This document shows positions 166 through 30,820 of a DNA stretch of 30,820 nucleotides, in pieces (the stretch's first letter is position 1; every line of letters starts with the position of its first letter). A program made the position numbers and the translations under genes. The stretch comes from Bdellovibrionales bacterium (lineage in GTDB: Bacteria > Bdellovibrionota > Bdellovibrionia > Bdellovibrionales > DASUEL01). The stretch lies in assembly GCA_050250255.1 (NCBI GenBank), contig JBFWOZ010000034.1, forward strand, positions 1 through 30,820, read 5' to 3'. The notes below the pieces were generated by a model. It made no database searches, had not been told where the DNA came from, and worked only from the letters and a program-made list of their open reading frames with translations.

Positions 166-633
166 CTAAGGTACGGACACACTTTTGGGACTCGGTGTGT
201 CCCAAAAGTGTGTCCGTACCTTCGAGTCTATGCTCCACTTACCACCGCCTACGCAGACAAAGAAAATGGCGACTGCGAGATAGACAAGAGAGAGCTCTTG
301 TTTTTGGAAAGGGTCTTCTGCGTGACGAACGAAACCGGCAACTCCCATCGTAATTGCGATAAAGAGAGCCGAGGGTCGTACAAATAGACCGATAGCTAAT
401 AAGATTCCGCCCATAAATTCTGCAAGTCCTGCGGACCATGCAAAAACGATAGGAAGAGGGAAGCCCATTTCAATAACGCCCTCGAGAAATTTTTCTGATG
501 GAGGGATTTTGTTCCATCCGTGAGCGAGAGCCATTGTCATTCCCACAAAAACACGAAGAACAAAAAGGCCAAAATGAAACAAGGGAGAGGAAGGATTGGT
601 TTTCGCAAACAGAAATGATTTTAATTTTTTCAT
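166..633 (-). CDS. DoxX family membrane protein with a palindrome-derived C-terminal tail
   Basis: Four hydrophobic segments. Motifs LRVFVG..HGWNK, AEFMGGILLAIGLFVR, QELSLVY and GGGKWSID are typical of DoxX/YphA. RBS AGGAG upstream. Confidence 0.9.
   Translation of the reverse strand: MKKLKSFLFAKTNPSSPLFHFGLFVLRVFVGMTMALAHGWNKIPPSEKFLEGVIEMGFPLPIVFAWSAGLAEFMGGILLAIGLFVRPSALFIAITMGVAGFVRHAEDPFQKQELSLVYLAVAIFFVCVGGGKWSIDSKVRTHFWDTPSPKSVSVP
168..222. repeat. Palindromic element 1 (24-bp perfect arms, 7-nt loop) inside the doxX 3' end
   Basis: AAGGTACGGACACACTTTTGGGAC (168-191) is the exact reverse complement of 199-222. Confidence 0.9.
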
Positions 634-5385: not shown

Positions 5386-7404
5386 ATGAAATCAATGAAA
5401 ACTCTTATTCCTGTGGCAGTGGTGACCCTCGGATTGATCGCGGCTTGTGCCCCGCAATCACGATTTCGTGCCCCTGTTCTTAAAGACGGAAAGTTAAAAA
5501 CGGACGCGGCGGCCGAACAAATCGCACCAACCCCTGGCGGTTCCCCAAGTCTCGAGGCTCCAAAAGACAAATTTTCACTCGACTATGTGAATGAACTAGA
5601 AAACGTTTACGTGCACGTCGAACAGCAAAAAAACAAATCTTTATTGGTTCAAGCCCGAGTACAAAGAAAAAATGTCGGTGATGTTATTTTACAAGGCTCT
5701 ATTGCTGACGGGAAGAAAGAAGCTGAGCTTCAGCAATACATTTCCACTCCAGAAGGTCGCTTAGTGCTGGTCTCAGATGAGAGTGAATCCATCCGTGGGC
5801 AAGTAAAGTGTGAAGAAGGAAAGAGTTGTGAAGAGGCCCTTACAATTCTTGCTCAACCTTTCAAAAAAGGTGAAGAGATCGGCGAATTTAAGATTCAAGT
5901 TCTTAACTCCAAACTTTCAGTAGAAGGCGCGACATTCAAAAAAGGTAAAGATTTCGATGCCACTCTTGCCGAACAGCTTTCACAAGCGGATTCTGTTCGT
6001 CAAGGCACAGTTCAATGGAAGGGTGCTGATGCGAAAGTCACTCATATGATCACTCTTCTTCAAAAGGATGCGAGCAGTCTTTTGATTGCTGCCGCCTCAG
6101 GAAAAATCGACGAAAAAATTGAGAGCCTAAAATTTAAAACTATTAGTAGTAAAGCCACTTTGAAAAAAGATGGAGTGCTTCAAGTCACAGGTCTTTCTTT
6201 GCTGACAGCTAGCGATACAGATGGTCTTCTCAAGAGTACGACCATCACATTGCTCGATAAAGAATCCAATATATTAGAAATTCACTTAAAGTCAGAAAAT
6301 AAAACAGAAGAAAAAACTGAAGATACAGATACAGAAATAACGACTACAAGTGAAGCAGCCGTCGTCAAAGGAGCGCTTGACGAAGTATCTGGCAGTAATG
6401 ATCAACAGACTCCGCCTGATTCGGGAGTGACAACTCGAGTAGGAACTCTTGAAGAAAATAAAGCCAGCGTTCCGGGAGTGATTCCTGGTAAGCCCGAAGT
6501 TCCAACGGTGACGATCTCTACTACTCCGGTAGGAACCCTCGCAGAAAATAAAGCACAGGTGCCTGCAGCGACGGCACCAGTAACGATCGGCATTCCGAAC
6601 TCACAGCCAGCAGGAACTCCTGCGGGTGGAGCATTCGCGGCCGCAAAAGTGGGTGGATCTCCTTCGATGGCAACGACTCCTGTGGCACAGATCTCCGCAC
6701 CACCTGCACCAAAAGCTCCATCGGCGATGATTTCAAATCCCAAGGCTTCGCCAACACTCGGTAACACATTGGCGGCTTTCCCCGTACAGCCTGTTCAACC
6801 AACGGATGATTTAATCTCTAAGAGTGACTTGTTTTGTACTTACGATTTAAGAAACGATCCAACGTCTGAAATGCAAATTTACATCTGGACAGGAAAAGCG
6901 GTTTCTGGTGCGAAGGTAGAAAAAGTTATCCAGATGAAAGCAAAAAAGCTAGATCGCGCACGTAAAGAATTTGTTCGCATCGATGAAGGCAAAAAGGATT
7001 CAAACTATATTCAAGCGAACACCTGTTTGGGCCAATTGACCTTCGTTAAAGAGGGTACATCTTGTCGCGAGCCTTATTTTGAAGTTACTGCTCGCACAAG
7101 TATGGAAAACCAATGTGTGTTAGCGAAAAACTACGGCAGTCCAACAACGTCAGCTATCTACGTTTATTCGAAAGGTGATAAGGCTCAGATCACATTTAAC
7201 GGCGGCCAGGTTGTGCAAGGTAGTAGCATCGGACAGAACTACTCAAAGTTTGAACTTTGCTCGGGAGTTCATGTGCATCATGCAGATGGAGTCGCTCGTA
7301 AGTATGAGAATAAACCTCTTACGGTTTATGGTTACGTGAATCCACAAGGTTCGACTCTTCAAAACAAATGTGTGATTGGTCTTGATTACGCACGAGTGAA
7401 GTAA
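5386..7404 (+). CDS. Large hypothetical lipoprotein with Pro/Ala/Thr-rich linker and Cys-containing C-terminal repeats
   Basis: AAGGAGG RBS before ATG 5386; lipobox LIAAC; low-complexity linker; no family recognised. Confidence 0.8.
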   Translation: MKSMKTLIPVAVVTLGLIAACAPQSRFRAPVLKDGKLKTDAAAEQIAPTPGGSPSLEAPKDKFSLDYVNELENVYVHVEQQKNKSLLVQARVQRKNVGDVILQGSIADGKKEAELQQYISTPEGRLVLVSDESESIRGQVKCEEGKSCEEALTILAQPFKKGEEIGEFKIQVLNSKLSVEGATFKKGKDFDATLAEQLSQADSVRQGTVQWKGADAKVTHMITLLQKDASSLLIAAASGKIDEKIESLKFKTISSKATLKKDGVLQVTGLSLLTASDTDGLLKSTTITLLDKESNILEIHLKSENKTEEKTEDTDTEITTTSEAAVVKGALDEVSGSNDQQTPPDSGVTTRVGTLEENKASVPGVIPGKPEVPTVTISTTPVGTLAENKAQVPAATAPVTIGIPNSQPAGTPAGGAFAAAKVGGSPSMATTPVAQISAPPAPKAPSAMISNPKASPTLGNTLAAFPVQPVQPTDDLISKSDLFCTYDLRNDPTSEMQIYIWTGKAVSGAKVEKVIQMKAKKLDRARKEFVRIDEGKKDSNYIQANTCLGQLTFVKEGTSCREPYFEVTARTSMENQCVLAKNYGSPTTSAIYVYSKGDKAQITFNGGQVVQGSSIGQNYSKFELCSGVHVHHADGVARKYENKPLTVYGYVNPQGSTLQNKCVIGLDYARVK

Positions 7405-7489
7405 TAAAGGTGCCAGTGTCATTTTTCTGGCTACATTGCTTCACAAAAGTGGACGCAGCGTAGCCAGAAAAATGACACTGGCACCTTTA
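7405..7489. repeat. Palindromic element 2 (30-bp perfect arms); probably also a bidirectional terminator
   Basis: TAAAGGTGCCAGTGTCATTTTTCTGGCTAC (7405-7434) is the exact reverse complement of 7460-7489. It fills the whole gap between two convergent stop codons. Confidence 0.9.
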
Positions 7490-8212
7490 ATTCTTGAGAG
7501 CTACGTAGATACGATGGACATCATCGAACTCGTCCACATCACCTAAAAAATCTTCCACTTCTTTACGCTGTTCTGGCGTTACTTCCGTGGTGTTTTTAGC
7601 AATGTAGCTCATTTCGGAAGTCGTGATGATCCACCCGGCTTTAGATAAAAACTTATTTACGGTATCAAGGTCGGTTGGTTCGCAAAAAAACCGAGCTCCA
7701 ATTTGAGTGCCGATCATCTCCGCTTTTTCTAAAGGTTCCACGTTCTGTGCGCCAGCTTCAATCGCGACTTCTTCGATATCTAAAGATTTATTTTCATGGG
7801 TGGCTTCAATGACGCCGAGGTGATTGAACATCCATGTGACACTTCCGATAGCGCCCATTTGGCCTTTTCGAAAGAGAGCCTTGATTTCTGAAGATGTGCG
7901 GTTGCGATTATCCGTTAAGCATTCCACAATGACGGGAACTTTGTGGGGCGTGAAACCTTCAAAAGTGACCATCTCGTACTGGACGGCCTCGTCGAGTAAG
8001 CCCGCACCTTTTTTGATGGCGCGTTCAATTGTGTCTTTAGGGACAGATTGTTTGCGAGCCGCTTCGACAGCGGCTCTGAGTCTTGGGTTATTTTCAGGGT
8101 GCGGGTCGCCGAGCTTCGCCGCCACCATGATCTCTTTGGTGAGCTTGTGAGTTTTTGCACCTTTTGCAGCACTGGCGCCGGCTTTCCCGGCATGTTTCCA
8201 CTGGGCACCCAT
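7487..8212 (-). CDS. yebC: YebC/PmpR family protein
   Basis: MGAQWKH start, NPRLRAAVEAARKQSVPKDTIERAIKKG, VECLTDNRNRT, DDVHRIY. Start trimmed to ATG 8212 by family N-terminus. Confidence 0.93.
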   Translation of the reverse strand: MGAQWKHAGKAGASAAKGAKTHKLTKEIMVAAKLGDPHPENNPRLRAAVEAARKQSVPKDTIERAIKKGAGLLDEAVQYEMVTFEGFTPHKVPVIVECLTDNRNRTSSEIKALFRKGQMGAIGSVTWMFNHLGVIEATHENKSLDIEEVAIEAGAQNVEPLEKAEMIGTQIGARFFCEPTDLDTVNKFLSKAGWIITTSEMSYIAKNTTEVTPEQRKEVEDFLGDVDEFDDVHRIYVALKN

Positions 8213-8934: not shown

Positions 8935-9019
8935 GAAAAGGTGCCAGGTTCCGTTTCCGGGTCACACAGCGTCACACATGGACGCGGCGTGACCCGGAAA
9001 CGGAACCTGGCACCTTTTC
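8935..9019. repeat. Palindromic element 3 (31-bp perfect arms plus inner GCGTC/GACGC stem)
   Basis: GAAAAGGTGCCAGGTTCCGTTTCCGGGTCAC (8935-8965) is the exact reverse complement of 8989-9019. Confidence 0.9.
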
Positions 9020-24260: not shown

Positions 24261-26495
24261 ATGGCTTACATCGGAAAATCGGTTTTACGTAAAGAAGGTC
24301 AGGACAAAGTTCGAGGCGCGGCCAAGTACATTGATGACCTCACTTTTCCTGACATGCTTCATGGAGTAACGATTCGTAGTTCGATCGCCCGTGGAAAAAT
24401 CAAGAACATTCATTTTGATCCTTCGGTGAATTGGTCAGAATATACGATTGTTACCGCAAAAGACATTCCTGGCAAAAATCATGTAGCGCTGATTCAAAAT
24501 GATCAGCCTTACCTCGTGGATCAGATGATCAACCATCCTGAAGAAGCGGTGGTGCTTATCGCCCACCCCGATAAACATCAGGCGGAACTTGCGCGCACCA
24601 AAATAAAAATTGAAACCGAAGCGATGCCCGGGGTTTTTTCGATTCAAGACTCTTTAGATAAAAAACAAATCATCTGGGGCCAGGATAACGTCTTTAAAAA
24701 ATATCTTGTCGATAAAGGCAATGTGGACCCGGTATGGTCGCAAGCCCACATGGTTGTTGAAGACGAATACTCTACCGGTGCGCAAGAGCAACTTTACATT
24801 GAACCCAACGGCATGGTCGCCGTTGCGGATAAAGAAAATGGCGTAACGGTTTGGGGATCTCTCCAGTGTCCTTTCTATGTTCACAAAGCGCTGATTGATC
24901 TCTTTGCCTTGCCTCAAAATAAAATTCGTGTTGTGCAGGCGGCTACGGGCGGTGGATTTGGTGGGAAAGAAGAATATCCTTCCATGATTGCGGGACATAC
25001 CGCTCTTCTTGCATGGAAGTCTGGAAAGCCCGTGAAAATGATCTACGATCGTGCCGAGGATATGGTTTGTACAACGAAGCGACATCCTTCGCGCACGAAA
25101 CATCGCACCGCCGTTTCAAAAGAGGGAAAACTCCTCGCAATGGAAATAGATTTTGTGATCGATGGGGGAGCTTATATCACGCTATCTCCAGTGGTTCTTT
25201 CTCGAGGAACGATTCACGCGGCCGGCCCCTACGAATGTGATCATGTGAGAATCAAAAGCCAAGCGGTTGCGACGAACGCGCCTCCTCATGGAGCCTTTCG
25301 CGGTTTTGGAGCTCCGCAAAGTTTATTTGCCTTAGAAAAACATATGGATGTCGTAGCCAAAAAAGTGGGCCTCACTCCTGAGGAGTTTCGTCGTCGTAAT
25401 TTTTTAAAAACCAATTCTCGAACAGCCACGAAGCAACTGATTAAAGAAAAAATAGATCTACCAGCGCTGATGGATCTTGGCCTTCGTAACACAAAGTACT
25501 TTGAAAAAAGAAAAAAGTACGAAACGTCTAATAAAAATGGACCGATCAAACGCGGCATTGGATTTGCGACTTTCATGCATGGAGCAGGATTCACCGGGAG
25601 CGGTGAGAAGTATTTAGCTTCTCAAGTGGGCATTGAGGCGACAGAAGAAGGAAACATTCGAGTTCTCGCTGCGAGCACGGAAATTGGTCAAGGAACCAAT
25701 ACGGTATTCTCCCAAATCGTGGCCGATGCGCTGCAAATCTCTTACGAGTCAGTGGAGGTTTTGCAGCCCGATACATCCAAGGTACCTAACAGCGGTCCAA
25801 CCGTGGCTTCAAGAACTTGCATGATTGTAGGGAAGCTTGTGGAGTCTGCGGCTTTAGGACTCAAGCAAACCCTCACTCAAAGTGGGCTTTTAAAAACGAC
25901 TTACACAGATAAAGAATTTCGATTGGCTGTTTTAGAATACTTAAAAAAATTCGGAACCCTTAAGTGCGTTACCGAATATAAACAACCGAACGATGTTCAA
26001 TGGAACGATGAAAAATATGAAGGTGATGCTTATGCCGCTTTTGCGTGGGCCATTTATGTTGCTGACATAAGCGTCGACACCCGTACTTACGAGACGCGAG
26101 TGGAAGATTTCTACGCGCTTCAGGAAATTGGCCGCGTTGTGCATCCGCTCATGGCTGAAGGACAAATTGAAGGTGGGGTCGCTCAAGGAATTGGCTATGC
26201 GCTTTACGAAAAAGTGGTTTGGAAAGAAGGACGCATGATGAATGGTCAGATGACCAATTATATTATGCCCACCTCAGCGGATCTTGGATCTCTTCGTGTG
26301 GAATTTTTAGAAAATCCTACGGAGCATGGCCCAGGGGGCGCGAAAGGAATTGGAGAACTTCCAATGGACGGTCCAGGGCCAGCAATCCTCAACGCGATCG
26401 AGATGGCCGTAGGTAAAACACCTAAGTTTATTCCGTTTCTTCCAGAAGATATGAGACGTCTTTTGAAGAATGAGAAGATGGAAGGCCGCGCATGA
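24261..26495 (+). CDS. Xanthine dehydrogenase family molybdopterin-binding subunit
   Basis: GGGFGGKEE, AFRGFGAPQ, EIGQG, SGPTVASRT, GQIEGGVAQGIG, KGIGELP. Confidence 0.95.
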   Translation: MAYIGKSVLRKEGQDKVRGAAKYIDDLTFPDMLHGVTIRSSIARGKIKNIHFDPSVNWSEYTIVTAKDIPGKNHVALIQNDQPYLVDQMINHPEEAVVLIAHPDKHQAELARTKIKIETEAMPGVFSIQDSLDKKQIIWGQDNVFKKYLVDKGNVDPVWSQAHMVVEDEYSTGAQEQLYIEPNGMVAVADKENGVTVWGSLQCPFYVHKALIDLFALPQNKIRVVQAATGGGFGGKEEYPSMIAGHTALLAWKSGKPVKMIYDRAEDMVCTTKRHPSRTKHRTAVSKEGKLLAMEIDFVIDGGAYITLSPVVLSRGTIHAAGPYECDHVRIKSQAVATNAPPHGAFRGFGAPQSLFALEKHMDVVAKKVGLTPEEFRRRNFLKTNSRTATKQLIKEKIDLPALMDLGLRNTKYFEKRKKYETSNKNGPIKRGIGFATFMHGAGFTGSGEKYLASQVGIEATEEGNIRVLAASTEIGQGTNTVFSQIVADALQISYESVEVLQPDTSKVPNSGPTVASRTCMIVGKLVESAALGLKQTLTQSGLLKTTYTDKEFRLAVLEYLKKFGTLKCVTEYKQPNDVQWNDEKYEGDAYAAFAWAIYVADISVDTRTYETRVEDFYALQEIGRVVHPLMAEGQIEGGVAQGIGYALYEKVVWKEGRMMNGQMTNYIMPTSADLGSLRVEFLENPTEHGPGGAKGIGELPMDGPGPAILNAIEMAVGKTPKFIPFLPEDMRRLLKNEKMEGRA

Positions 26496-26977
26496 AAAAA
26501 GAAGATGTAAAAAAGGAGAAAGTCACCTTTCAAGTCAACGGCAAGATTCAAACAGTCGAAGCTTACCCTATGGAGCGCCTTCTTGATGTTTTAAGAACGG
26601 AAGTTCAGCTCACCGGAACCAAAGAAGGTTGTGGTGAAGGAGAATGTGGTGCATGTTCTATTTTCATGAATGGTCTACTCGTGAATAGTTGTCTTGTTCC
26701 CGTTCACCAAGCAAAAAATGTCCAGGTCACGACGATTGAAGGACTGAGTGAAGATAAAAATCTTCATGTGATGCAAAAAGCCTTCTTGGAATGTGGGGGA
26801 GCCCAATGCGGGATTTGCACTCCAGGAATGATCATGGCTTCTTGTCATCTGTTAGAAAAAAATAAAAATCCTAGTCGCCAAGAAATTGCCGAAGCTTTAT
26901 CTGGAAATCTCTGCCGCTGCACCGGATACACCAAAATTTTGGATTCTGTGGAGCAAGCCCTCAAGGAGCGCACATGA
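26492..26977 (+). CDS. XDH family (2Fe-2S)-binding subunit
   Basis: GTKEGCGEGECGAC, QCGICTPG, GNLCRCTGY. Confidence 0.96.
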   Translation: MKKEDVKKEKVTFQVNGKIQTVEAYPMERLLDVLRTEVQLTGTKEGCGEGECGACSIFMNGLLVNSCLVPVHQAKNVQVTTIEGLSEDKNLHVMQKAFLECGGAQCGICTPGMIMASCHLLEKNKNPSRQEIAEALSGNLCRCTGYTKILDSVEQALKERT

Positions 26978-27846
26978 GAGGTTTTGTTCCTAATTACTCC
27001 ATGGTTTCTCCAAAAAATCTGTCTGAGGCTCTCAGTCTCTTGGAGAAAAATCCTTCGCTGAAACCCTTTGCGGGTGGAACCGATATTATGGTTCTCTTTG
27101 AAGCAGGAAAATTAGAAGCAAAAGAATTTCTCGATATCAATCAGCTCTCCGAATTAAAAAAGATTAAGGTAGAGCCTCAACATATTGAAATTGGGGCCTT
27201 GGCAACCTACACCGACATTGCACAAAATCCTGAGATTCAAAAAGAGTTTCCTATGCTTGTGCAAGCGGCCACTCTTACGGGCGCCGTGGCGATTCAAAAT
27301 CGCGGAACTATCGGCGGGAATATCGCAAACTCTTCTCCCGCTGCGGATACACCACCCGCTTTACTCGCCTACGATGCGGCATTGATTCTCACATCTTCAA
27401 AAGGGGAGAGACAGATTTCTATTTCGCAATTTTTTAAGGCCTACAAAAAGACGGCTTTAGAAAAGGGTGATTTGATCACGAAAGTGATTTTAAAAAGAAA
27501 CTTTCAGCCAACTGATGTTCACTATTATCACAAAGTGGGAACGCGGAAAGCGCAGGCGATTTCGAAAGTGTGTTTTGCGGCTTTTGCAAATATGGAAAAT
27601 CAAAAAATATTGAATGTACGTATCGGCCTTGGGAGTGTAGGACCGACTTCTCAAAGGGCTCTCCAGACGGAAGCTCTTTTAAAGGGGCAAGTGGTCAACG
27701 ATTCGCTGATTCAAAAGGCCAGAGCCTCTCTTGCCCAAGAAATTGTTCCTATAGACGATATACGCTCAGATTCTGCTTACAGACTTGACGTAGCCTGCAA
27801 TCTTTTAGAAGACTTCCTGCATGGATTGGCTCGCCGGCCTTCATGA
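26974..27846 (+). CDS. XDH family FAD-binding subunit
   Basis: AGGTD, IQNRGTIGGNIANSSPAAD, PIDDIRS..YR. Confidence 0.95.
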   Translation: MRGFVPNYSMVSPKNLSEALSLLEKNPSLKPFAGGTDIMVLFEAGKLEAKEFLDINQLSELKKIKVEPQHIEIGALATYTDIAQNPEIQKEFPMLVQAATLTGAVAIQNRGTIGGNIANSSPAADTPPALLAYDAALILTSSKGERQISISQFFKAYKKTALEKGDLITKVILKRNFQPTDVHYYHKVGTRKAQAISKVCFAAFANMENQKILNVRIGLGSVGPTSQRALQTEALLKGQVVNDSLIQKARASLAQEIVPIDDIRSDSAYRLDVACNLLEDFLHGLARRPS

Positions 27847-28639
27847 GGCCCGACAAAATAATCATAGCTGCGTTCTTGTCACTTTGATGGGAATTTCAGG
27901 TTCTGCCCCCCGCGAAAAGGGAGCGAAGATGCTTGTTTTGTCGGATGGTCGTATTCGCGGAACTATTGGGGGCGGGCAGCTTGAGCTCCAGATCATTGAT
28001 GAAGCCAAAAAATATCTCTCTCAAGGCAAATCCGAAACTCTTTATACCCAAGATTATCCGCTCAGCGTGAAAACGCAGCAATGTTGTGGAGGAGTCGTGC
28101 AAGCGCTTTTTGAAGTGTTTCACTCCCAAAAGTCTCTCTATATTTTTGGTGCAGGGCATGTGGGCCAGGCATTGAGTCGAGTTGTTTCGGAATTGCCGTT
28201 AGATGTGCATCTGATTGACGAAAGGCAGGAGTGGGTCTCCCAAGCTTCTTCATCCGTAAAAACCTATCAGCAAAAGCCCCTTGAATTTGTAACCCATCGG
28301 GAATGGAAAAATTCCGATTTCGTGGTGGTATTAACACATTCTCATGATTTAGATTTTGAGCTCATTCATTATTTCTGCGGCAAAAACATTCAGTATTTAG
28401 GTTTAATCGGTAGCGATACAAAATGGGCTCAGATGAGAAAAAAACTTCAGAGTCAGAAACACTCGCTAGAGAACATCGAAAAAATTCGTTGTCCGATCGG
28501 TCTTAAAATTGGTGGTAAAACCCCTGGTGAAGTAGCCATCAGCATTGCGGCTGAACTTCTACAAGAAACAGGAAAGGCAGCTCTTTATGAGAACACTCCT
28601 ACAGAACCAAACTCCACTCATTCTCCTGTGCGCTGGTAA
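27821..28639 (+). CDS. xdhC: Xanthine dehydrogenase accessory protein XdhC
   Basis: GSAPREKGAKMLV, GTIGGGQLE, QCCGG, FGAGHVG, THSHDLD, GLIGS, CPIG, KTPGEVAISIAAE. Confidence 0.93.
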   Translation: MDWLAGLHEARQNNHSCVLVTLMGISGSAPREKGAKMLVLSDGRIRGTIGGGQLELQIIDEAKKYLSQGKSETLYTQDYPLSVKTQQCCGGVVQALFEVFHSQKSLYIFGAGHVGQALSRVVSELPLDVHLIDERQEWVSQASSSVKTYQQKPLEFVTHREWKNSDFVVVLTHSHDLDFELIHYFCGKNIQYLGLIGSDTKWAQMRKKLQSQKHSLENIEKIRCPIGLKIGGKTPGEVAISIAAELLQETGKAALYENTPTEPNSTHSPVRW

Positions 28640-29222
28640 AAGCGAGCGTTTTGGTTCTCCTAAAGGCTTAGCACCTTTTGGCTCAGGAACTTGGCTCAAA
28701 CATCAGATCGAAAGCTTTCGGGAGTTTTCCGAAGCCTCAATATTTGTAACTTTAGGGGCCTATCATCGAGAGTACGACACCGAAATTCAAAACCTTCTTG
28801 AGACAAATAAAAGTTTGAAAATCTTTGGCGTAGAAAACCCGCATCATGAGTGGGGACCTTTTTCGAGCGTGTATGTGGCGGTTAGAGCCGTTCTCAACAA
28901 GAAGTATAAGCAGGGGTTCATCCTTCCCGTAGATGTGGCGCTGCCAAATTCGGAAGTTCTCTCCGTTCTTTTAGAAACTGACGAGAATAAAGATATCATC
29001 GTGCCTGCATATAAAGAAAAGGGCGGACACCCGGTGCTCCTGCGGCATAAGTTTCTGCAAAGAATTAGCGAAGCAGATCCAAAGACTGATCGCTTAGATC
29101 ACTTAATCCGTCAGTGGCCGAGCGAAGGTTATGAGAAAAAAGAGGTCTCGGATATTTTCGTGACGAGTGGTTTTAATACGATTGCGGAATATGAAGCTTT
29201 GAAGGACTTAATCAAAGCATAA
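28587..29222 (+). CDS. Molybdenum cofactor cytidylyltransferase-like nucleotidyltransferase (MocA family)
   Basis: LLCAGKSERFGSPKGL, LPVD, GGHPVLL; last gene of the XDH operon; start probably ATG 28587. Confidence 0.85.
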   Translation: MRTLLQNQTPLILLCAGKSERFGSPKGLAPFGSGTWLKHQIESFREFSEASIFVTLGAYHREYDTEIQNLLETNKSLKIFGVENPHHEWGPFSSVYVAVRAVLNKKYKQGFILPVDVALPNSEVLSVLLETDENKDIIVPAYKEKGGHPVLLRHKFLQRISEADPKTDRLDHLIRQWPSEGYEKKEVSDIFVTSGFNTIAEYEALKDLIKA

Positions 29223-29263
29223 AAATCAACATTCGATAGGATGCTAGCTTTGGAGTCATCCAT

Positions 29264-29383
29264 CCATGTCTGTGACTTTTGAAAGTTGGCTCTGCCGTAT
29301 CCCCTACGTTGGGGGACCCTCGGCAGTGAGCCAATCCCTTCGGGACAGGCTTTCAAAAGTTCTATGGCAAAATCGGTGCTTAA
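29264..29383 (+). repeat. Left copy of a ~120-bp structured inverted repeat flanking the HNH gene
   Basis: Aligns with the reverse complement of 30593-30713. 29283-29339 is identical to revcomp(30639-30695) over 57 bp. Confidence 0.93.
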
Positions 29384-29448: not shown

Positions 29449-30312
29449 CTACAGAAGTGTTTGACTTTTTAAGTCCCACATTAATTTGTTATGGTTTGAA
29501 CAAAGAAGTCTGAGATTTCTTAACTCTGTCTTTCCCCCGAACGCTAACGGTTTGATATGATCAAATTGAAGATAGTGCTTACTTCCACAAACGCGCCCTG
29601 TCTGAGGGTTTTTATACTGGCAGACTTGATCACGATGAATAATCGTCGCTTTAATAGCTTTAGGAATATAACGAGCCGATGAAACCTTGAGAAGAGGTTC
29701 ACTCCGCTGCGGAGGCAGTGGCGCGTTATGCTTTTGCATGAGTACATTGAGTCCCATTTCAAAAATCTGCGCCATCGAAAGGTTTTGATGAGACAGCTTA
29801 GCTTGAAGTGTTTTTAACTTCTCTTGGCCTGACCTATTTAATGTAAATCGAACTTCCGTATGTTCTTCATCCAGCAGTCGCTGCTTTTCTTCGGGAATAG
29901 GCAAAGGAGCAAGAGCTAAAAGAACTCGCTCTGATTCTTGAGAACTTTTATTTTCTAATTGAGACAAAATCTCTCTTTTTGAATGCGTATCGAGTCTTTG
30001 CTGACGAAAATGAGATTGTGCTTTGCTAATGACGGAAAGATTCAAAACTCCGGATTGGATTTTCTCCTCCACTTCAGGAATTTCTTTAATGAGCCTCATA
30101 GCCGAAATCCTTCGATGTGCACTCGCTTCGGAATATCCAAGCTCTTTCGTACAAAAGGCATAAAGATTGGAGTAACCCATCTGCAAATGAAGCTTACGAC
30201 CTTCCACTTCTCGTAAATGGTGAAGCACAAGATTTAATATCCTTCTTTCCTCTAAAACAAATTGTTTTAAATCCTGAACGAGAATTTCGTTAGTTTTCAA
30301 TTTTAGTTTCAT
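29449..30312 (-). CDS. DUF222-like N-terminal domain / HNH endonuclease protein
   Basis: N-terminal EERR..LHHLREVE.RKLHL.MGYSNLYAFCTKELGYSEASAHRRI. C-terminal RYIP...RDQVCQY...CGS...QFDHIKP..FGG.....NLRLLCSNHN. AAGGAG RBS. Confidence 0.9.
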   Translation of the reverse strand: MKLKLKTNEILVQDLKQFVLEERRILNLVLHHLREVEGRKLHLQMGYSNLYAFCTKELGYSEASAHRRISAMRLIKEIPEVEEKIQSGVLNLSVISKAQSHFRQQRLDTHSKREILSQLENKSSQESERVLLALAPLPIPEEKQRLLDEEHTEVRFTLNRSGQEKLKTLQAKLSHQNLSMAQIFEMGLNVLMQKHNAPLPPQRSEPLLKVSSARYIPKAIKATIIHRDQVCQYKNPQTGRVCGSKHYLQFDHIKPLAFGGKTELRNLRLLCSNHNKLMWDLKSQTLL

Positions 30313-30592
30313 AAATCACTCCTTTGGCTGAATCAAAGATAACATGAGATTTTTTTGAATGAATTTTTAGAGTCTAACGAATGAAAACTAATCTCGCCTT
30401 AATGAAATTTAAAGCCCATTAGGCGAACGAAAAATTACATTTTGATTTTTTCAGAATTGAAACTCTACTACACTGATCAAACGAAAACTTAAGAGCAAGA
30501 AAAGTCGGTCAAGATCTTATTTGCGCCTTTTCAAATTATTTAAAAAAGTGAGACAAAAAATATTCTGCTTTACGCATAGAAGTTTGCAATAC

Positions 30593-30713
30593 TTAAAGTA
30601 CCGATCTCGCCATAGAACTTTTGAAAGCTCGTCCCGATAGGGATTGGCTCACTGCCGAGGGTCCCCCAACGTAGGGGATACGGCAGAGCCAACTTCAAAA
30701 GTCACAGACACGG
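30593..30713 (-). repeat. Right copy of the ~120-bp structured inverted repeat
   Basis: Reverse complement of 29264-29383 with a few substitutions and indels outside the 57-bp core. Confidence 0.93.
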
Positions 30714-30727
30714 TAAATTGAAGAAGT

Positions 30728-30792
30728 AGGGTCTCCAACGGTTGAATAATCTCGGATTAGGAGATTATTAATTGGACTCTGAAGGAGACCCT
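30728..30792 (+). promoter_or_regulatory. Structured leader pairing with the RBS of the downstream ORF
   Basis: AGGGTCTCC (30728-36) pairs with GGAGACCCT (30784-92). Inner stem AATAATCTC (30745-53)/GAGATTATT (30761-69). Confidence 0.55.
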
Positions 30793-30796
30793 TAAA

Positions 30797-30820
30797 ATGA
30801 AATACAAACATTATATCGCC
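30797..30820 (+). CDS. Start of a CDS truncated by the window end (MKYKHYIA...)
   Basis: ATG 30797 preceded by AAGGAG; only 8 codons visible. Confidence 0.55.

What the first reader, a model, noticed from the sequence alone, without database searches (positions are those of the whole stretch)
29275..29360. Each flanking repeat folds into a three-way junction (candidate ncRNA or ssDNA recognition structure)
Seen in the left copy: P1 ACTTTTGAAAG (29275-85)/CTTTCAAAAGT (29350-60). A long P2 is made of TTGGCTC/GAGCCAA, TGCCG/CGGCA and TCCCC/GGGGA with internal loops. P3 is TCCC-ttc-GGGA. Differences between the two copies fall in the P3 loop (TTC vs TATC), the junction (CAG vs CGA) and one P1 indel, while P2 is invariant. 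The right copy reads in this same sense on the HNH gene's strand about 280 nt upstream of its start; the left copy points into the gene's 3' end. Inference: structure is under selection, reminiscent of the structured ends or RNAs of IS200/IS605 and OMEGA-type systems, although no sequence match is recognised.
Basis: partly seen in the sequence, partly recalled or inferred. Interest (0 to 1): 0.7.

Follow-up and report, generated by a model that had tools for sequence, protein, structure and literature searches.

The report
GGA-loop repeat riding on mobile genes
The fold is real and belongs to a small three-armed repeat family, likely related to the known but untested TwoAYGGAY motif, that sits just behind multi-copy nuclease and transposase genes in several related bacteria and likely offers docking loops to the RNA regulator CsrA rather than guiding the nuclease.

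Summary
The three-way junction is real (z about -5.3) and under selection: across 11 genomes of this order, 21 of 22 base pairs show changes on both sides. In this genome 14 of 15 copies lie 0-90 nt behind DUF222-like HNH genes. In two other genomes the unit lies inside insertion sequences behind the transposase; in a third, in frame inside HNH genes; elsewhere it is free between genes. None of 47 other HNH loci tested carries it, so it is not an OMEGA-type partner RNA. The 'invariant P2' is a 35-nt hairpin private to this genome that replaced the GGA loop; it does not covary. No Rfam match, but sister repeats here score just under the TwoAYGGAY cut-off. The scan found TwoAYGGAY-like repeats before on other DNA (104 notes). 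New here: repeated sense-strand carriage by three unrelated mobile gene types. CsrA binding and transcription are untested.

The parts
29257..29364 (-). Left unit, read on the HNH strand: outer stem P1, GAA mini-hairpin, second arm (carrying the 35-nt module), then a trailing ATGGAT-loop hairpin; P1 starts 88 nt after the HNH stop
   Evidence: Model R2 hit, 65.9 bits; distance; folds
29275..29360 (-). The three-way junction of the finding (P1 29275-85 with 29350-60)
   Evidence: family covariation
29335..29345 (-).
   Evidence: sequence; loop tally
29292..29326 (-).
29261..29268 (-). Trailing CATGGATG motif, the only GGA loop left in the left copy
29449..30312 (-). 287-aa HNH endonuclease gene of a multi-copy family (20 hits in this genome); close homologs carry DUF222
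30313..30586 (.). AT-rich upstream region of the HNH gene; weakly similar (68% over 134 nt, E 0.005) to contig C26, where it is also followed by a half copy of the unit
30613..30720 (+). Right unit, facing away from the HNH gene; has lost both GGA loops (module in the arm, trailing loop cut)
   Evidence: Model R2 hit, 49.1 bits; alignment
30652..30686 (+). 35-nt module in the right copy, identical to the left
30712..30820 (+). Sequence that interrupts the trailing GGA loop; identical to the end of contig C82 behind another copy; likely the start of an unassembled insertion sequence (family not shown)
   Evidence: raised depth

Best explanation
The structure is one copy of a dispersed three-armed GGA-loop repeat, likely related to TwoAYGGAY, that lies directly behind most multi-copy HNH genes of this genome and was likely spread as their passenger, with its fold likely kept because it displays GGA loops to CsrA on the transcript. 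Shown: the family, its covariation, its position behind HNH genes here and inside insertion sequences elsewhere. Inferred: (1) a free repeat was captured at the 3' end of HNH genes at least twice in this lineage and then copied with them; (2) copies exchange parts by recombination (mixed HNH and repeat types; one 35-nt module in five junction copies and two sister repeats); (3) the window is an outward-facing pair with the HNH gene between, like TwoAYGGAY doublets; (4) selection acts on RNA bound by CsrA. The two window copies are derived: the module replaced the arm's GGA loop, and the right copy has no GGA loop left.
For: Covariation: 38 rows, 96.3% paired, 16 of 19 pairs change on both sides; 68 rows, 93.4%, 21 of 22 pairs, slid controls 28-53%. 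GGA in the arm loop in 53 of 60 copies without the module and in the tail in 58 of 65. A genome-wide descriptor scan that knew nothing of HNH found 9 short copies, all behind HNH genes; model R2 gives 15 strong hits, 14 of them 0-90 nt behind an HNH stop on the same strand, across three HNH subfamilies 25-40% identical. G021: 5 of 5 copies behind one transposase-like gene, inside 23-bp terminal inverted repeats in the one complete copy. G396: inside an integrase-core IS with 50-bp terminal repeats. G010: 3 of 7 copies in frame in HNH linkers, a 90-nt indel against a paralog. All of these have the GGA strand as the sense strand. Sister repeats in this genome score 32.7-35.7 bits on RF01731 (cut-off 43), and two of them carry the same module. 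csrA is present, beside fliW. CsrA binding by TwoAYGGAY is a published hypothesis (PMC4333381, passages; 10.64898/2026.09.22.753630, section 8 and passages).
Against: No transcription or binding data. csrA is in 139 of 150 genomes but the unit in only 11 of 150, so presence does not discriminate. G-U pairs outnumber A-C only 24 to 14. The small hairpin's loops fit stable DNA mini-hairpins at least as well as RNA. Six of 20 HNH genes here lack the unit, and most copies in G125 (24), G030 and G031 are free of mobile genes, so passenger spread cannot explain all copies. The junction itself does not match RF01731 at any threshold tried. Alignments were fitted to the model. Direction is not shown: mobile genes might insert next to the repeat instead.
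Confidence: 0.55

Rival explanations
1. The fold works as single-stranded or cruciform DNA: a REP-like recognition structure that a nickase (possibly the DUF222-HNH protein itself) uses to move or target it, which would make HNH the mobiliser of these repeats.
For: 46 of 63 called small-hairpin loops are G-N-A or G-N-N-A on the GGA strand, the loops of very stable DNA mini-hairpins (PMC13037366, passages); GATA, GTTA and GCTA break the RNA GNRA rule (recalled rule). All 15 copies and one half copy in this genome are next to an HNH gene or its upstream region. Outward-facing pairs occur (window; G030 contig C319). G116 copies share nested lengths of flank with a common end near the unit. An insertion cuts two copies at one base.
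Against: 0 of 47 HNH loci in relatives carry the unit; 1 of 24 G125 copies is within 1 kb of an HNH gene and none of 4 in G031. The unit's place relative to HNH differs by lineage (behind, inside, upstream). No terminal repeats or shared target duplications at HNH copies, apart from one 23-bp direct repeat at C5. The main loop read on the other strand is the RNA UUCG loop, so it cannot decide (recalled).
Confidence: 0.25
2. It is a stabilising or terminating 3' structure with no specific protein partner; mobile genes and this repeat simply pile up at the same tolerant sites at gene ends.
For: Among non-self copies the upstream neighbour is on the same strand in 23 of 32 and the downstream neighbour faces it in 26 of 40 (rough ORF calls). 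Other palindromes follow several copies.
Against: No U-rich terminator is called at either copy. It does not explain conserved GGA loops, nor 14 of 15 copies behind HNH genes when 150-nt windows behind them are 0.05% of the genome.
Confidence: 0.13
3. It is the scaffold of a guide RNA for the HNH nuclease, as in OMEGA systems, or an IS200/IS605-type end.
For: Position at the 3' end of a nuclease gene resembles TnpB RNAs (recalled); 14 of 20 HNH genes here have it.
Against: Only the HNH motif matches the IscB model (18 bits, cut-off 175); no RuvC family hit; relatives lack the unit; close paralogs differ in having it (C6 yes, C73 no, 86% identical); the same unit rides on unrelated transposases; 30 flanks of 30 nt gave only 15-21-nt matches at E 0.01-0.65 elsewhere in the genome.
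Confidence: 0.05

Closest known systems
TwoAYGGAY RNA motif (Rfam RF01731; PMC2864571 table entry; PMC4333381 passages; extended form in 10.64898/2026.09.22.753630, section 8)
   Same: Two hairpins on a basal stem; AYGGAY-type loops; two such loops per unit; multi-copy, patchy between genomes; outward-facing doublets; proposed CsrA sites; sister repeats in this genome score near its cut-off.
   Different: Only one of the two arms has the GGA loop, the other is a GAA mini-hairpin, and the second GGA hairpin lies outside the basal stem. About 80 nt. No RF01731 hit for the junction. The preprint's main text never mentions HNH; its supplementary figures on variants could not be read.
CsrB/RsmY/RsmZ-type CsrA-sequestering RNAs (PMC4333381, passages)
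   Same: GGA shown in hairpin loops, in pairs.
   Different: Dispersed repeat with two loops, not a single-locus gene with many sites; expression unknown.
REP sequences and RAYT-associated repeats; REPs as IS targets (PMC1525189, search listing only; rest recalled)
   Same: Short palindromic multi-copy units at gene ends; an insertion sits inside two copies.
   Different: Branched fold; three RAYT-like genes here are flanked by other palindromes, not by this unit.
REP13E12 / DUF222-HNH repeats of mycobacteria (PMC10589994, passage)
   Same: The adjacent gene is of the same DUF222-HNH type and is multi-copy (87 of 151 genomes of the class).
   Different: I found no report of a structured repeat tied to these genes in three searches.
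OMEGA (IscB, TnpB) RNAs and IS200/IS605 ends (recalled)
   Same: Structured sequence next to a nuclease gene.
   Different: No IscB/TnpB architecture, no Rfam match, no conserved link to the nuclease, no guide-like flank.

Membership tests
TwoAYGGAY (RF01731) | Score at or above the Rfam cut-off of 43 bits | tested here: not met
   No hit in the window at cut-off, none at E<=10 in 18 own-genome loci, none at E<=1 in 14 relatives' loci. Sister repeats reach 32.7-35.7 bits.
TwoAYGGAY (RF01731) | Two hairpins on a common basal stem | tested here: met
TwoAYGGAY (RF01731) | Both arms end in an AYGGAY loop | tested here: not met
   One arm has a GAA-type loop; the second GGA loop is outside the stem; window copies have the module in the GGA arm.
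TwoAYGGAY (RF01731) | Multi-copy, patchy, outward-facing doublets | tested here: met
   1-24 copies in 11 of 150 genomes; doublets in the window and G030; enrichment of doublets not tested.
Csr/Rsm-binding RNAs | GGA in hairpin loops, host has CsrA | tested here: met
   met for the family, only partly for the window (one loop left, none right)
Csr/Rsm-binding RNAs | Transcribed and binds CsrA | not testable with these tools
   No RNA holder listed.
OMEGA (IscB/IsrB/TnpB) RNA | Cognate nuclease with IscB/TnpB architecture | tested here: not met
   fold search gave no match at E<=0.001
OMEGA (IscB/IsrB/TnpB) RNA | RNA conserved beside the nuclease across the family | tested here: not met
   0 of 29 and 0 of 18 HNH loci
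OMEGA (IscB/IsrB/TnpB) RNA | Variable guide next to the scaffold with targets | tested here: inconclusive
   No convincing target in the own genome; phage and plasmid sets not searched.
IS200/IS605 ends or RAYT-REP | Y1 HUH transposase flanked by the repeat | tested here: not met
   8 Y1_Tnp hits; none has this unit in the 300-350 nt read on each side.
MITE | Terminal inverted repeats shared with an autonomous IS and a target duplication | tested here: inconclusive
   P1 varies between lineages; where the unit is in an IS it is internal to the IS ends; the one indel site showed no clear duplication.

The most novel reading that the evidence does not exclude
Unrelated selfish genes (DUF222-HNH, an integrase-core IS, and a second IS type) have each captured the same GGA-loop module in the sense orientation behind their coding sequence because it recruits or soaks up the host's CsrA, and in this lineage the DUF222-HNH nuclease has become the vehicle that spreads TwoAYGGAY-like repeats, supplying the missing mobility mechanism for that family.
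Probability: 0.2. Interest if true: 0.72.

Novelty: new variant of a known kind. Interest (0 to 1): 0.42.

Why it matters
How TwoAYGGAY-like repeats spread and whether they bind CsrA are open questions (10.64898/2026.09.22.753630, discussion passage). This family gives a compact 80-nt test case with strong covariation, natural variants that lost one or both GGA loops, and direct cases of carriage by mobile genes, which offers hitchhiking as one route of spread. B. bacteriovorus CsrA has been shown to work as a repressor in a heterologous assay (PMC13443453, passages), so binding is easy to test. It is not a new RNA-guided system.

Tried and rejected
Rfam at cut-off on the window and at loose thresholds on 18, 20 and 14 loci: no relevant hit. 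DNA search of 40 relatives with the window copy: 0. A strict core pattern in 300 phylum genomes hit only the own genome once, so it was uninformative; a second exact pattern found nothing in the genome collection. Module patterns: 0 in metagenomes, 0 of 220 genomes, one unrelated-looking viral hit. No RNA holder listed among sequencing runs; this is no evidence on expression. Search for an HNH remnant before the right copy: none. Idea that the insertion at 30712 is IS110-like: no transposase of that family over cut-off in the assembly, no match in 300 genomes; unresolved. HNH model (pLDDT 74, pTM 0.46; HNH domain poorly modelled) gave only weak ParB-like helix-turn-helix matches. The HNH tree is the quick one; the careful run did not finish. 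The G064 hit (E 7.7e-4, AT-rich) is counted in 11 of 150 but is doubtful and was left out of the alignment. Three reverse-strand duplicate rows were dropped from the tallies but are in the 68 rows. Paper searches for REP plus CsrA gave nothing; an ISPpu9 small-RNA preprint had none of my terms.

Full report
Observation. The fold is as described. 29275-29360 gives a three-way junction at -42.6 kcal/mol (z -5.3 as RNA, -6.6 as DNA; 0 of 200 shuffles), and the reverse strand folds about as well. The right copy differs by one indel in P1, one loop base and a two-base swap in the junction. These three differences include no compensatory change. Rfam has no match at cut-off.

Context. Between the copies lies a 287-aa HNH endonuclease gene (29449-30312, minus). 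Homologs are named from Bdellovibrionota and some carry DUF222, so the genome is probably of that group (inference). The family is multi-copy: 20 hits in this genome and matches in 87 of 151 genomes of the class.

The family in this genome. Read on the HNH strand, the repeat recurs just behind HNH genes, mostly in a short form: an 9-11-bp outer stem, a small hairpin with a GAA-type loop, a hairpin with a GGATG loop, and after the stem a second GGATG hairpin. A genome-wide descriptor scan found 9 short copies, all behind HNH genes. Model R2, built partly from these copies, gives 15 strong hits; 14 begin 0-90 nt after an HNH stop on the same strand, the fifteenth is the window's right copy. They span three HNH subfamilies (quick tree); 6 of 20 HNH genes lack the unit, including C73, 86% identical to C6 which has it. 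Contig C26 holds a region like the window's HNH upstream sequence followed by a half copy, so the outward-facing upstream copy may not be unique (weak, E 0.005).

The long P2. It is the short arm plus a 35-nt hairpin standing in place of the GGATG loop. The module occurs 7 times with 0-3 differences: five junction copies and two sister repeats, at different loops. Its variants are in loops only. It was found in 0 of 220 other genomes of the order and not in metagenomes. Its invariance most likely reflects recent spread by recombination. The left copy keeps one GGA loop; the right copy keeps none, as its trailing loop is cut at 30712 by a sequence identical to the end of contig C82 behind another copy.

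Other genomes. R1 hit 8 of 150 genomes of the class and R2 11 of 150 of the order, own genome included, with only 31 candidates scored per genome. Alignments fitted to the models show strong covariation: 96.3% of cells paired and 16 of 19 pairs changed on both sides in 38 rows; 93.4% and 21 of 22 in 68 rows from 11 genomes, against 28-53% for slid partners. Shuffles ignore relatedness, but the outer stem has different sequences in each lineage. GGA is kept in the arm loop in 53 of 60 copies without the module and in the tail in 58 of 65. An exact core pattern (small hairpin plus GGATG arm) hit at least 120 places in the genome collection; the 80 listed are mostly Gammaproteobacteria, with Zetaproteobacteria, Desulfobacterota, Nitrospirae and Myxococcota. 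There the core sits in a different frame: R2 found only 2 weak partial matches among 71 of those loci, 7 of 80 are within 300 nt of a tRNA or tmRNA gene, and 20 of 80 scanned gave no TwoAYGGAY hit.

Link to mobile genes. The best HNH locus of 29 other genomes, and 18 further HNH loci from three genomes that have the unit, carry no copy. Yet mobile genes recur. In G021 all 5 copies follow one transposase-like gene (only helix-turn-helix families matched), and in the complete copy the unit lies inside 23-bp terminal inverted repeats. In G396 it lies inside an integrase-core IS with 50-bp terminal repeats. In G010, 3 of 7 copies are in frame in the linker of HNH genes; a paralog lacks exactly 90 nt there, and another has a decayed version, so loss is as likely as gain. 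In all four cases the GGA strand is the sense strand; these are about four or five independent events, so the orientation signal is modest. In G116 two of 8 copies lie 560-590 nt upstream of HNH starts, facing away. Most copies in G125, G030 and G031 are free between ordinary genes, and one site behind the same gene is shared by G010 and G030.

Mechanism. Best reading (0.55): a TwoAYGGAY-like repeat captured by HNH genes and copied with them, kept folded to show GGA loops to CsrA. csrA is present beside fliW but is nearly universal in the order (139 of 150). The DNA rival (0.25) rests on G-N-A and G-N-N-A loops in 46 of 63 called small hairpins, typical of stable DNA mini-hairpins (PMC13037366, passages); G-U against A-C (24 to 14) barely helps. 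The guide-RNA reading (0.05) fails on protein architecture, conservation and flanks. Y1 transposases here have other flanks.

Known relatives. TwoAYGGAY is defined as two AYGGAY-loop hairpins on a basal stem, often in outward-facing doublets (10.64898/2026.09.22.753630; outline, section 8 and passages read; supplements closed, and its figures S25-S29 on variants may bear on novelty). CsrA binding was proposed in PMC4333381 (passages). The junction fails the Rfam score and the two-AYGGAY-arm feature, so I do not file it as a member; sister repeats in this genome score 32.7-35.7 bits against a cut-off of 43 and share loops and the module with it. Paper searches showed no report of this unit on HNH or IS elements; the library lacks most subscription papers. 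The scan holds 104 earlier notes on TwoAYGGAY-like repeats in other genomes, one of them inside IS481 relics; these are unchecked and not counted as support.

Verdict. Real, conserved, a new variant of a known kind; not an RNA-guided system. Interest 0.42.

Noticed in passing
G000 contigs C1:110583, C9:74865, C11:76325, C12:2049, C16:43787, C28:11935, C29:21365, C33:15714 and 15980, C80:5279 (L279-L285, L029, L030): A sister family of two-arm GGA-loop repeats closed by long, nearly perfect stems of 25-40 bp whose sequence differs at every locus; three score 32.7-35.7 bits on TwoAYGGAY.
   Followed up: partly
window 168-222, 7399-7495, 8935-9019: Long palindromes whose arm motifs match the repeats flanking RAYT-like Y1 genes on C1, C8 and C16: probable REP families of this genome.
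   Followed up: partly
window 24261-29222: Xanthine dehydrogenase-type molybdoenzyme operon (large, 2Fe-2S and FAD subunits, XdhC, MobA-like) ending 35 nt before the left unit and facing it.
   Followed up: no
L016 (G000:C5:64000-65900): The C5 HNH plus unit is bracketed by a 23-bp direct repeat (22 of 23 identical) that looks like half a terminator; possible target duplication.
   Followed up: no
L246, L248, L229 (G010): The repeat is translated as about 30 residues of the linker in three intact HNH genes, like palindromic elements inside coding genes.
   Followed up: partly
L025 (G000:C30:16806-16921): In this copy the small hairpin, not the GGA arm, is replaced by a longer 36-nt arm, so both arms accept swaps.
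   Followed up: no
G000 type-C HNH genes, about 250 nt upstream: Conserved upstream region with a TTGAC-like motif shared by ten copies, with no sharp left end or terminal repeat; how these genes multiply is unexplained.
   Followed up: partly
G000 C26:1-126, C92 end, C5:1-125, C62: An identical 125-nt IS end breaks several contigs, including inside the C92 HNH gene.
   Followed up: no
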